This document shows, in pieces, positions 44,801 through 47,800 of a stretch of DNA of 64,000 bases. A program made the position numbers. Position 1 is the first letter of the stretch. Each line of letters starts with the position of its first letter. The DNA comes from Mizuhopecten yessoensis (taxonomy: Eukaryota), in NCBI RefSeq assembly GCF_002113885.1, contig NW_018407065.1:1068436-1132435 (forward strand). Reading direction: 5' to 3'.

Positions 44801-47800
44801 AGCTGTAGACAGATGGGAGGCAGCTGTAGACAGATGGGATGCTGTTGTAGACATATGGGAGTCAGCTGTAGACAGATGGGAGGCAGCTGTAGACAGATGG
44901 GATGCTGTTGTAGACATATGGGAGTCAGCTGTAGCCAGATGGGAGGTAGCTGTAGACAGATGGGAGGCAGCTGTAGACAGGTGATAGTTTTAGATGGGAG
45001 GCAGCTGTAGACAGGTGGGATTTTTATATGGGAAGCAACTGTAGACAGGTGGTATTTTTAAATTGGAGGTAGCTGTAGACAGGTGGTAGTTTTAGATGGG
45101 AGGTAGCTGTAAACAGGTGGTAGTTTTAAACGGGAGGTAGCTATAGATAGGTGGTAGTTTTAGATGGGAGGCAGCTGTAGACTGGTGGTATTTTTATATG
45201 GGAAGCAACTGAAGACAGGTGGTATTTTCAAATGGGAGGTAGCTGTAGACAGGTGGTAGTTTTAGATGGGAGGCAGCTGTAGACAGATGGGAGGTAGCTG
45301 TAGACAGATGGGAGGCAGCTGTAGACAGGTGATATTTTTAGATGGGAGGCAGCTGAAGACAGGTGGTATTTTTAGATGGGAGGAAGCTGTAGACAGATGG
45401 GATGCTGTTGTAGACATATGGGAGTCAGCTGTAGACAGATGGGAGGTAGCTGTAGACAGATGGGAGGCAGCTGTAGACAGATGGGAGGCAGCTGTAGACA
45501 GATGGGAGGTAGCTGTAGACAGATGGGAGGCAGCTGTAGACAGATGGGAGGTAGCTGTAGACAGGTGGTAGTTTTAAATAGGACTCAGCTATAGACAGGT
45601 GGTAGTTTTAAACGGGAGGTAGCTATAGACAGGTGGTATGTTTAGATGGGAGGCATCTGTAGACAGGTGGTATTTTTAGACAGGAAGCAGCTGTAGACTG
45701 CCTTTATTTATAGACAGACATGTAATAGATGTTTTCCTTGAGTAATGATTGTCAATCTCGATACAGTTTTCTCCTTGTGAGTACTAACCTTCATGTCCAC
45801 CAGGTCGAGCCACTGATTTAGACGAGAAGCCAGGAATATAGCGTCCTGGGAATTGTCTCCTTCTGAACAGAACATCAGCAGAACTACGACTGGCATATCT
45901 TTCCCACTGTAACAGACAGGTATAAAAAATACTTACTTGTAGTCAAGTGTTTTTATACACACATTTTTTCTTTATACACACATCAATGATGAAGGTCATT
46001 CAAGGTTGATTCTTTCAATCTGATTGACTGATGGTCTCCATCTTACTTGCAAAAAATGTTCACTTATTTTTTTTAGAAAACTCATAAAGTTGTTATATTT
46101 GTTTTAAGTTGCTATAATTGGTAAGAGGTACACACTAATAACTTTTGGGTCATTCTATCAGAAGTCCTTGTTTGGGTCATTCTATCAGAAGTCCTTGTTT
46201 GGGTCATTCTATCAGAAGTCCTTGTTTGGGTCATTCTATCAGAAGTCCTTGTCATTCCAAGTTAATTCCTACGCAAAATATCTTATGAGATGTGCACACA
46301 TTCAACAATTGTGGGCATATGAGTGTACCGTTCACAGTAATCTTGTTAAGTAAGAGAGGCCTAATGTATTAACTCTGGCTTACCATTCCTCCAGTAACCA
46401 CTGGCCCTGCCCCTCTTCATCTAGTTAGATAATTTTGTATTAACTCTGGCTTACCATTCCTCCAGTAATGACTTGGCTATGCCCCTCTTCATCTAGTTAG
46501 ATAATTTTGCATTAACTCTGGCTTACCATTCCTTCAGTAATGACTTGGCTATGCCCCTTTTCATCTAGTTAGATAATTTTGTATTAACTCTGGCTAACCA
46601 TTCCTGCAGTAATGACTTGGCTATGCCCTTCTTCATCTAGTTAGATAATTTTGTATTAACTCTGGCTTACCATTCCTCCAGTAATGACTTGGCTATGCCC
46701 CTCTTCATCTAGTTAGATAATTTTGTATTAACTCTGGCTTACCATTCCTCCAGTAGAGACTTGGCTATGCCCCTCTTCATCTTGTTAGATAATTTTGTAA
46801 AACTCTGGCTTACCATTCCTCCAGTAATGACTTGGCTATGCCCCCTCCTGGTACGTAGATATAATTAGGTTTTTCAGATCCATTCTGAAGCTCTTCTGGA
46901 GTGTTTCTACGTTCTAGATCCAACCAATTCAGCGGAGCACTCCGTAACATCTGGCAAGTCTTGGTCTCCTCCATACATTGGGAAGCAAGGAAACGAAGCT
47001 GATCTCTTTAAACAGATTCAGTAAGTTATCAATTTAGAAGAAAAATTAACGTTTATCATCTAAAGCTACTACAAAGTAATTATGACAAATAACTGAGACT
47101 ATTTTATATAAAAGATATTCATAACAATTTTTTATGTTGTCCTTTCACCATCATACAATACATGTTTGTTCCCTATACATATTGAGCATTGAGTATACAT
47201 GGGTCAAAGTCGTTCATTTAAACAAACCGTGTAGCCCTAACTCAAGCATGCTACAGACAAAATATGAACATTGTATACGGAAGAAACAGTTGGTAAAGAC
47301 AATTGTTTTGCTCTCTGAAATGTACACTCAGCATGTGATTCCTATTATTGATGGGGAAGTTTAATATAAATTGACTGTTAAGATAAAACCTACCCCTGAA
47401 GCTGTATGTTTTCTGTTAAGATAAAACCTACCCATGAAGCTGTTAGATTACTGCTAAAATAAAACTTACCCCTGAAGCTGTATGTCTACTACTAAGATAA
47501 ACATACCCCTGAAGCTGTATGTTTATTGTTAAGATCAAACTTTCCCCTGAAGCTGTAAGTTTACTGTAAAGATAAAACTTATCCCTGAAGCTGTATGTTT
47601 ATTGTTAGATCAAACTTTCCCCTGAAGCTGTAAGTTTACTGTAAAGATAAAACTTATCCCTGAAGCTGTATGTTTATTGTTAGATCAAACTTTCCCCTGA
47701 AGCTGTAAGTTTACTGTAAAGATAAAACCTGTCCCTGAAGCTGTATGTTTACTGTAAAGATAAAACTTACCCCTGAAGCTGTATGTTAACTGTAAAGATA

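What the first reader, a model, noticed from the sequence alone, without database searches (positions are those of the whole stretch)
46364..46845. PSMG2 exon 5: ~31 nt of coding sequence plus the donor copied six more times
Seen: the GIAKSLLEE-coding end of exon 5 and its GTAAGCC donor recur at 71-72-bp spacing, and the most distal copy is the most diverged. It lies in the intron next to the 38-bp donor array but shares no sequence with it, so it arose independently. Read-through gives TG|G TAA, a stop. Inference: two consecutive donors of one housekeeping gene being amplified points to a local or transcription-linked mechanism.
Basis: seen in the sequence. Interest (0 to 1): 0.65.

Follow-up and report, generated by a model that had tools for sequence, protein, structure and literature searches.

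The report
Repeat array copying a splice donor
In a scallop proteasome-chaperone gene a 72-base repeat array begins inside exon 5 and copies its end and splice signal six more times into the intron, a kind of repeat already described in lancelets and humans.

Summary
On the minus strand, the last 31 nt of exon 5 of a PSMG2/PAC2 gene plus 41 nt of intron form a 72-bp tandem array: 7 copies, spacing 71-72 bp, and 6 of 7 keep GTAAGCC. The window is Yesso scallop (Mizuhopecten yessoensis), not human. The annotated protein and a second scallop's ortholog both join at the first donor. Any later donor gives TGG TAA.

The neighbouring 38-bp array likewise starts 16 nt inside exon 4 and has 31 units. 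A third, unrelated array does the same at a TPX2 exon on the other strand.

This is a boundary-spanning minisatellite. The kind is known as "mirages" in amphioxus and as the F7 intron-7 VNTR type in humans (PMC3087553, PMC1557585).

Tandem arrays cover 22% of the window, and the arrays share no sequence. Two in one gene has chance about 0.8% under uniform seeding. Once the two ascertained arrays are set aside, the rest of the window shows no excess. A genome-wide donor bias remains possible but untested.

Verdict: a new member of a known kind, of modest interest.

The parts
46814..47005 (-). PSMG2/PAC2 exon 5 (192 nt). It ends ...GAG GAA TG.
   Evidence: tblastn of the named scallop protein P0001, residues 139-201, 100% identical. 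Sequence read.
46812..46813 (-). Authentic donor GT of intron 5 (ATG|GTAAGC). It is the most upstream of the seven donors.
   Evidence: Annotated protein joins ...SLLEE + C + GKDMP here. The join is conserved in the Ylistrum balloti protein.
46774..46844 (-). Copy 1 of the 72-bp unit (71 nt): real exon end (31 nt) plus the first 40 nt of the intron.
46415..46773 (-). Copies 2-6 (46773-46702, 46701-46630, 46629-46558, 46557-46486, 46485-46415). All are intronic decoys. Copy 4 has the dead donor GTTAGCC.
   Evidence: Copies 2-6 differ from one another at 1-6 columns.
46334..46414 (-). Copy 7, the distal edge copy. Its exon-like part is diverged, its donor is intact, and it has an 8-nt insertion. 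Its tail shares AACAAGAT with copy 1.
45907..46813 (-). Intron 5 (907 nt). Besides the 72-bp array it holds a perfect 27-bp x 4.0 array at 46144-46252.
45789..45906 (-). PSMG2 exon 6. The acceptor is ...gttacag|TGGGAAAG, so TG+T gives Cys.
48531..48649 (-). PSMG2 exon 4. It ends ...ATT CAG GG|gtaagt.
47374..48546 (-). 38-bp array of 31 units: the last 16 nt of exon 4 plus 22 nt of intron. Of the 31 units, 23 keep GT at the donor position (10 GTAAGT, 12 GTAGGT, 1 GTATGT) and 8 have lost it.
27916..28259 (+). TPX2 48-bp array (7.2 copies): the last 15 nt of the exon that ends at 27933, plus a GTAGGA donor and 33 nt of intron. This is the same design in another gene.

Best explanation
This is a boundary-spanning minisatellite, of the 'mirage' or F7-intron-7 type. 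It lies in intron 5 of the Yesso scallop PSMG2 (proteasome assembly chaperone 2) gene.

Origin (inferred): a short tandem duplication happened to span the exon 5/intron 5 junction. The upstream copy stayed joined to the exon and kept working, while the downstream copy fell inside the intron, so the duplication cost little. Slippage or unequal exchange then raised the copy number. The inner copies were homogenised and the edge copies drifted.

Splicing (inferred): the gene is spliced from the first, most upstream donor. The six downstream copies, five with an intact donor, are removed with the intron. If one were used, the message would read TGG TAA and end 75 residues early, and it would probably be degraded by nonsense-mediated decay.

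The neighbouring 38-bp array at exon 4 and the 48-bp array in TPX2 are independent products of the same process, in a genome region where more than a fifth of the DNA is tandem arrays.

What is shown: the anatomy, the host gene, the independent origin of the arrays, and the edge-versus-centre divergence pattern.

What is inferred: the mutational mechanism, exclusive use of the first donor, and the fate of mis-spliced messages.
For: - Array anatomy: TRF period 72, 6.7 copies, 94% matches. Seven donor positions at 71-72 bp spacing.
- Host gene: the exon 5 peptide is 100% identical to the named scallop PAC2-like protein. Seven exons map in the window. The Pfam PAC2 family matches exon 2 with E 4.9e-10.
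- First donor used in the model, and the join is conserved...SLLEE-C-GK(D/E)MP in both M. yessoensis and Ylistrum balloti proteins.
- Immediate in-frame stop after the exon end.
- Inner copies are near-identical (1-6 differences). The distal copy is far diverged (26-28 differences). Copy 1 and the tail of copy 7 share AACAAGAT, where copies 2-6 share AACTAGAT. This is the edge-exclusion pattern of array turnover also reported for amphioxus mirages (PMC3087553, passages read).
- The same design occurs twice more: exon 4 and TPX2. The units are unrelated to one another and are absent elsewhere in the window.
- Array load: 14,162 of 64,000 bases.
- Predicted RNA accessibility does not distinguish the real donor (0.35) from the intact decoys (0.31-0.46). 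This leaves position as the likely determinant. Position was shown experimentally to decide the choice in human F7, where only the most upstream of 5-9 identical donors is used (PMC1557585, abstract, introduction and discussion read).
Against: - No transcript data could be consulted. First-donor use rests on a predicted protein model and on protein conservation only.
- Three donor-spanning arrays against none at the 24 mapped acceptors, plus a fourth array starting 9 bases past a TPX2 donor, is more than uniform seeding predicts for the window as a whole (P(>=3) = 0.006-0.017). A donor-linked bias therefore cannot be excluded.
- The copy number comes from a single assembly and was not checked.
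- The unit boundary in the exon is ambiguous by 2-6 nt, because of a G-run indel.
Confidence: 0.78

Rival explanations
1. Donor-linked bias across the scallop genome. Either tandem arrays are seeded preferentially at 5' splice sites, or arrays that span acceptors are purged far more strongly. In both cases boundary arrays pile up at donors. PSMG2 would then be one visible instance of a general rule.
For: Within one 64-kb window, 3 of 18 arrays span one of the 24 mapped donors, none spans one of the 24 mapped acceptors, and a fourth array starts 9 bases after a TPX2 donor. Under uniform seeding 0.40-0.59 donor-spanning arrays are expected and P(>=3) = 0.006-0.017. The amphioxus authors also suspected a general phenomenon and called the mechanism unclear (PMC3087553, passage).
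Against: The window was chosen because of two of these arrays. Without them, one more donor-spanning array has P = 0.32-0.43. In amphioxus both 5' and 3' boundaries are reported duplicated (PMC3087553, legend of Figure 6). No microhomology or shared motif was seen at the three array borders.
Confidence: 0.2
2. PSMG2-specific local or transcription-linked amplification. Something about this gene's transcription or chromatin amplifies its donors.
For: Two consecutive donors of one gene are affected. Under uniform seeding within the gene, P(>=2) = 0.0077.
Against: The two arrays differ in unit length (72 against 38 bp), copy number (7 against 31) and divergence (94% against 85% matches), and they share no sequence. 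The other six arrays of the gene do not touch a junction. TPX2, on the other strand, has the same structure. Given two hits among six donors, adjacency has chance 5 in 15 (my own arithmetic).
Confidence: 0.05
3. Functional decoy array. The repeated donors are kept by selection, for instance to recruit U1 snRNP or to tune PSMG2 output through unproductive splicing and decay.
For: Five decoys keep a donor 9-mer identical to the real one. In the 38-bp array, 22 of 30 decoys keep GT.
Against: Decoys decay freely. Copy 4 has lost its donor, 8 of 31 units of the 38-bp array have lost GT, and the exon-like parts carry non-synonymous changes in copies 4, 5 and 7. The three arrays share no motif beyond the donor itself. 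In human F7 the pseudo-sites are silent (PMC1557585).
Confidence: 0.05
4. Assembly artefact. The array, or its copy number, is a product of misassembled reads or merged haplotypes.
For: The window comes from a scaffold-level assembly (longest contig for the gene's protein is 2.77 Mb) and contains single Ns. Arrays longer than a read are hard to size.
Against: Copies 2, 4, 5 and 7 carry private substitutions in a regular 71-72-bp register, as real arrays do. Three independent arrays show the same design.
Confidence: 0.05

Closest known systems
Amphioxus 'mirages': minisatellite-like tandem duplications of exon/intron boundaries (Adh3, troponin C, globins BflGb6 and BflGb9, PGBD5). Sources: PMC3087553 (passages read) and PMC3902484 (one passage read).
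   Same: Tandem units of tens of bases that span an exon-intron boundary and so reiterate the splice signal. Unit sizes overlap (Adh3 10-72 bp). They are reported not to disturb normal splicing. Inner copies are homogenised and edge copies excluded, as seen here. Several occur per gene or genome.
   Different: A different phylum (mollusc, not cephalochordate). Here all three cases are at donors, whereas amphioxus has both 5' and 3' boundary cases. Length polymorphism and somatic instability, shown for Adh3, could not be tested here.
Human F7 intron-7 37-bp VNTR and its like (IFI6/6-16 intron 2, CBS intron 13, LMNB2, PDGF intron 4). Source: PMC1557585 (abstract, introduction and discussion read).
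   Same: The first monomer spans the exon-intron boundary, so the authentic donor is followed by identical pseudo-donors. F7 has 5-9 repeats and IFI6 has 25 pseudo-sites, comparable with 7 and 31 here. In F7 only the most upstream donor is used.
   Different: The F7 monomer holds only 4 exonic bases, against 31, 16 and 15 here. Splicing behaviour is measured for F7 and only inferred here. In IFI6 and CBS the first two pseudo-sites are also used, which may or may not hold here.
Intron gain or modification by tandem duplication across AG|GT proto-splice sites (Rogers model, as cited in PMC3087553; human segmental-duplication cases in PMC2812944, passages read).
   Same: A tandem duplication that includes a splice signal is absorbed by splicing instead of disrupting the reading frame.
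   Different: No new intron or exon is created here. The copies lengthen an existing intron.

Membership tests
Boundary-spanning minisatellite (amphioxus 'mirage' / human F7 IVS7 type) | Head-to-tail tandem array of minisatellite-sized units | tested here: met
   TRF: period 72, 6.7 copies, 94% matches, 0% indels. Register 71-72 bp.
Boundary-spanning minisatellite (amphioxus 'mirage' / human F7 IVS7 type) | The first monomer contains the real exon end and its splice site, so the site is reiterated in the intron | tested here: met
   Unit = 31 nt of exon 5 + GTAAGCC + intron. Exon end fixed by 100% identity to the named protein.
Boundary-spanning minisatellite (amphioxus 'mirage' / human F7 IVS7 type) | Normal splicing uses the authentic (most upstream) site, and the copies stay silent or nearly so | tested here: inconclusive
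   The predicted protein and the Ylistrum ortholog join at the first donor. No RNA data could be consulted.
Boundary-spanning minisatellite (amphioxus 'mirage' / human F7 IVS7 type) | Array turnover: inner copies homogenised, border copies diverged | tested here: met
   Copies 2-6 differ at 1-6 columns and copy 7 at 26-28. Copy 1 and copy 7 share a state lost in copies 2-6.
Boundary-spanning minisatellite (amphioxus 'mirage' / human F7 IVS7 type) | Copy-number polymorphism between alleles or individuals | not testable with these tools
   Only one sequence of the locus is available.
PAC2 / PSMG2 proteasome assembly chaperone (host gene) | Match to the Pfam PAC2 family (PF09754) above its gathering score | tested here: met
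   Exon 2 ORF: 40.0 bits against a cut-off of 25.8, E 4.9e-10. The ORFs scanned for exons 4-7 gave no family at E<=0.01 when scanned alone. The named full-length protein carries PF09754.
PAC2 / PSMG2 proteasome assembly chaperone (host gene) | Complete, uninterrupted coding exons | tested here: met
   All 277 residues of P0001 are accounted for in seven exon matches at 53021-40853 on the minus strand.

The most novel reading that the evidence does not exclude
In the scallop genome, minisatellites are born or retained preferentially at 5' splice sites. Arrays that copy an exon end plus its donor would then be common genome-wide: three in this one window, none at acceptors, and a fourth abutting a donor. 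They would also act as dated fossils of exon sequence. The exon 4 and TPX2 decoys still carry the residues seen in other scallop genera, which the live exons have since changed. If true, this would point to a splice-site-linked mutational process, or to a strong donor/acceptor asymmetry in what splicing tolerates. It would also make scallops a natural large-scale test of how a spliceosome picks the first of up to 31 near-identical donors.
Probability: 0.2. Interest if true: 0.6.

Novelty: new member of a known kind. Interest (0 to 1): 0.3.

Why it matters
It matters modestly. The structure itself is a known curiosity (amphioxus mirages, the human F7/IFI6/CBS VNTRs). Four points give it some value:

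- My literature searches turned up no report of such arrays in a mollusc.
- Two consecutive exons of an essential single-copy gene each carry one, with 7 and 31 donors, and a neighbouring gene carries a third. This echoes the suspicion that in some minisatellite-rich invertebrate genomes the phenomenon is general.
- These arrays are ready-made natural tests of the model that the most upstream donor wins, which was established on human F7 minigenes.
- The decoy copies preserve older states of the exon. That gives a cheap internal way to polarise recent amino-acid changes.

For genome annotation, such arrays are traps: a gene predictor that picks a later donor will call a truncated protein.

Tried and rejected
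- Pfam on exon 5 alone: no family at E<=0.01. Identity of the exon was settled instead by the exon-wise homology search.
- The listing of cluster members, intended to see whether other annotated isoforms of TPX2 or PSMG2 use decoy donors: the query could not be made because the shared database is switched off. Isoform usage therefore stays unchecked.
- A weak TMEM120-like Pfam hit at 1736-1924 (E 0.0066) found 0 relatives among 1.84 billion representatives. The arrays at 1-1087 and 3938-6436 could therefore not be placed relative to any exon, and they count as non-junction arrays.
- Rfam on the whole window: 0 matches at gathering scores. The units are not known RNA genes.
- A dispersed-element origin of the units is rejected. 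No copy of any of the three units lies outside its own array; the best outside hits are 10-12-nt words with E >= 0.19.
- Structure-masking of the decoys is rejected as far as prediction goes. Mean unpaired probability is 0.35 for the real donor against 0.31-0.46 for the intact decoys.
- Coding read-through of the 72-bp array is rejected because the stop is immediate. Splicing each unit out as a mini-intron using the unit's ...aactag gives a 34-nt intron, and the joined frame reads TGA. This comes from reading the sequence.
- Anamorsin's last intron (10960-8046) holds two arrays, and neither touches a junction.
- Tandem-repeat content of the scallop genome could not be taken from the literature. 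PMC4856933 had none of the search terms, and PMC11439060 gives only interspersed-repeat percentages.
- Supplementary files of the papers were not opened. The amphioxus alignments and trees in the additional files of PMC3087553 might refine the comparison.
- Orthologous introns of other scallops, population resequencing and RNA-seq could not be reached.
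Full report
**What the window is**

The exon named in the finding lies on the minus strand. Its 63-residue translation (46814-47004) is 100% identical over its whole length to the NCBI protein 'proteasome assembly chaperone 2-like [Mizuhopecten yessoensis]' (277 aa, E 3.4e-34). It is 75% identical to the ortholog of another scallop, Ylistrum balloti. The window is therefore Yesso scallop DNA and not human. G+C is 30-41%.

I searched the gene exon by exon. The window holds two single Ns (20238 and 23531), which I left alone.

**Gene map**

tblastn of the named protein against the window places all seven coding exons on the minus strand, with ends read:

| Exon | Coordinates |
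|---|---|
| 1 | 53021 to about 52959 |
| 2 | about 50814 to 50644 |
| 3 | 49718 to about 49659 |
| 4 | 48649 to 48531 |
| 5 | 47005 to 46814 |
| 6 | 45906 to 45789 |
| 7 | about 40960 to 40853 |

Pfam's PAC2 family matches the exon 2 ORF (E 4.9e-10). The ORFs scanned for exons 4-7 are too short to score when scanned alone.

Other genes in the window:
- anamorsin on the minus strand
- TPX2 on the plus strand, 18903-35441
- an FMO-like gene on the plus strand

**The observation**

Tandem Repeats Finder gives one array at 46365-46844: period 72, 6.7 copies, 94% matches, no indels, score 848. Read on the coding strand, each unit is 31 nt identical or nearly identical to the end of exon 5 (...GGGGCATAGCCAAGTCATTACTGGAGGAATG), then GTAAGCC, then 34 more intron bases.

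- The last exon-like base recurs at 46814, 46743, 46671, 46599, 46527, 46455 and 46384, a spacing of 71, 72, 72, 72, 72, 71.
- Six of the seven copies have GTAAGCC. Copy 4 has GTTAGCC and is dead as a donor.
- In the exon's frame the sequence reads ...SLLEEW and stops, that is TG|G TAA.
- Copies 1-6 differ from each other at 1-7 aligned columns. Copy 7, the farthest from the exon, differs at 26-28 columns, counting an 8-nt insertion and its tail.

**The neighbour array**

The 38-bp array (47374-48546, 30.9 copies, 85% matches) begins 16 nt inside exon 4. The unit is ACATACAG(A/C)TTCAGGG + gtaagttttatcttaacagtaa. It has 31 units, counting the authentic one:

| State at the donor position | Units |
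|---|---|
| GTAAGT | 10 |
| GTAGGT | 12 |
| GTATGT | 1 |
| GT lost | 8 |

Read-through here gives GGG TAA.

The same design occurs in a different gene on the other strand. The TPX2 exon that encodes ...FKSRGRMCSANK ends at 27933. A 48-bp array (27916-28259, 7.2 copies, 91% matches) repeats its last 15 nt, a GTAGGA donor and 33 intron bases. Here 48 bases make 16 codons, and the frame stays open through the whole array.

A further TPX2 array (28 bp x 11.6, 33628-33951) starts 9 bases after the last base of the exon ending at 33619.

Of the 18 arrays considered, none spans any of the 24 mapped acceptors.

**Is it more than chance?**

Tandem arrays cover 14,162 of the 64,000 bases, merged into 20 blocks. 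PSMG2 alone contains eight arrays.

I simulated a null model in which the founding unit of each of 18 arrays falls uniformly in the window. A 'hit' is a unit that contains a donor with at least 4 nt on either side.

| Test | Result |
|---|---|
| Expected hits, 24 mapped donors | 0.40 |
| P(>=3), 24 mapped donors | 0.006 |
| Expected hits, 36 donors (allowing for unmapped genes) | 0.59 |
| P(>=3), 36 donors | 0.017 |
| PSMG2 alone, expected | 0.148 |
| PSMG2 alone, P(>=2) | 0.0077 |
| Remaining 16 arrays, P(at least one hit) | 0.32-0.43 |

The last row matters because the window was picked on account of the two PSMG2 arrays. Leaving those out, one further hit among the remaining 16 arrays is unremarkable.

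So the pattern is suggestive. It does not establish any special process, and across a whole genome a gene with two such arrays is to be expected somewhere. Adjacency of the two affected donors adds little: 5 of the 15 possible pairs of six donors are adjacent.

**What it is**

The literature already holds this kind of structure.

*Human cases.* Borensztajn et al. [quoted passage not shown]
- F7 intron 7: 37 bp, 5-9 repeats
- IFI6/6-16 intron 2: 25 pseudo-sites
- CBS intron 13
- LMNB2
- PDGF intron 4

They show with 50 F7 constructs that the pseudo-donors are functional but that only the most upstream site is used.

*Amphioxus cases.* The same structures were named 'mirages' (Adh3, troponin C, globins, PGBD5). 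They have units of 10-160 bp and no disturbance of normal splicing. Inner copies evolve in concert, while border copies are excluded from homogenisation (PMC3087553, passages read; PMC3902484, one passage read).

The scallop array meets the structural criteria, including the border effect. Copies 2-6 share AACTAGAT, where copy 1 and the tail of copy 7 both keep AACAAGAT. Inner copies therefore descend from one later variant, and the two edges retain the older state.

**How it most likely works**

Inferred steps:
1. A short duplication spanned the junction.
2. Because the upstream copy remained contiguous with the exon and kept its donor, the message was unchanged, and the extra copy became intron.
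3. Slippage or unequal exchange then changed copy number.

The annotated protein joins ...SLLEE + C + GKDMP at the first donor, and the Ylistrum protein has the same join. The same holds for ...IQIQG|DQLRF at exon 4.

The real donor 9-mer and the five intact decoys are identical (AUG|GUAAGC). Their predicted accessibility is alike: 0.35 for the real donor against 0.31-0.46 for the decoys. Position, not sequence or structure, must therefore decide the choice, in line with the F7 experiments.

Use of any decoy would give a stop one codon later. The result would be a protein lacking its last 75 residues, or a message removed by nonsense-mediated decay. This is inference, since I had no transcript data.

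**A by-product: decoys as fossils**

The decoys preserve older exon states.
- *Exon 4.* All 30 decoys of exon 4 carry C where the live exon has A, that is CTT Leu against ATT Ile. The Ylistrum protein reads ...VQLQG against ...IQIQG in M. yessoensis.
- *TPX2.* Most of the decoys encode GSADR, exactly the Ylistrum residues; Pecten maximus has GSTDR. The live M. yessoensis exon end reads CSANK.

Both arrays therefore predate amino-acid changes in the live exons. By contrast, the 72-bp array's copies 3 and 6 are identical to the live exon over the 31 nt.

**What was excluded**

- The units are not dispersed elements. Each matches only its own array.
- Nothing in the window reaches an Rfam gathering score.
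- The array cannot be read as coding sequence.
- Selection for the decoys is unlikely, because they decay. Copy 4 has lost its donor, 8 of 31 units of the 38-bp array have lost GT, and there are non-synonymous changes in copies 4, 5 and 7.
- An assembly artefact cannot be ruled out for the copy number. It is unlikely for the structure itself, because the copies carry private substitutions in a strict register.

**What stays open**

- I could not see transcripts, other individuals, or the orthologous introns of other scallops. No eukaryotic genome collection is open here.
- The look-up of other annotated isoforms could not be made.
- My searches found no report of such arrays in molluscs. The library lacks most subscription journals, and supplements were closed.

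**Verdict**

This is a new member, or rather three new members, of a known kind of boundary-spanning minisatellite. It sits in a genome region saturated with minisatellites. Interest is modest.

The one reading worth a follow-up is a genome-wide bias towards donors, which a simple intersection of arrays and annotated junctions would settle.

Noticed in passing
window 27916-28259 (+), TPX2 exon ending at 27933: A third boundary-spanning array: 48 bp x 7.2, made of the exon's last 15 nt, a GTAGGA donor and 33 nt of intron. The unit is 16 codons and the frame stays open through the array, so use of a later donor would add 16 residues per unit in frame.
   Followed up: partly
window 47374-48546 (-) and 27964-28251 (+): Decoy copies keep older exon states. 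All 30 exon 4 decoys have CTT (Leu) where the live exon has ATT (Ile), and Ylistrum has Leu. Most TPX2 decoys encode GSADR as in Ylistrum, while the live exon reads CSANK.
   Followed up: partly
window 33628-33951 (+): A 28-bp x 11.6 array starts 9 bases after the last base of the TPX2 exon ending at 33619. It sits just past the donor consensus without including it.
   Followed up: partly
window 41895-45698: A 3.8-kb compound array of 21-, 34- and 102-bp periods fills most of PSMG2 intron 6. It starts 91 bases from the exon 6 donor and gives this stretch a strong G-over-C skew (0.23-0.35).
   Followed up: no
window 46144-46252: A 27-bp unit repeated 4.0 times at 100% identity in the same intron 5. 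It is presumably very young.
   Followed up: no
window 46702-46773 (-), copy 2 of the 72-bp array: Copy 2 differs from the exon-like consensus by two changes (TCT CTA for TCA TTA). Both would be synonymous in the exon frame. With so few changes this may be coincidence.
   Followed up: no
window 47374-48546 (-): The 38-bp array has higher-order structure: units 8-10 resemble units 11-13, and units 23-24 resemble units 25-26. Each unit also carries an acceptor-like ttttatcttaacag about 17 nt before its donor.
   Followed up: no
window 8352-10184 and 10471-10554: A 231-bp x 7.9 array and a short 34-bp array lie in the last intron of the anamorsin gene (10960-8046, minus strand). Neither touches a junction.
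   Followed up: yes
window 37989-39089: A 324-bp unit repeated 3.4 times at 96% identity lies between TPX2 and PSMG2. Its ORFs found no Pfam family.
   Followed up: no
window 23502-23531 and 20238: A run of 29 C ends at a single N (23531), and another single N is at 20238. Both lie within TPX2 introns and were left as they are.
   Followed up: no
window 1736-1924 (-): A weak TMEM120-like Pfam hit (E 0.0066) found no relative among 1.84 billion representative proteins. The first 7 kb of the window, with arrays at 1-1087 and 3938-6436, stays without a gene model.
   Followed up: yes
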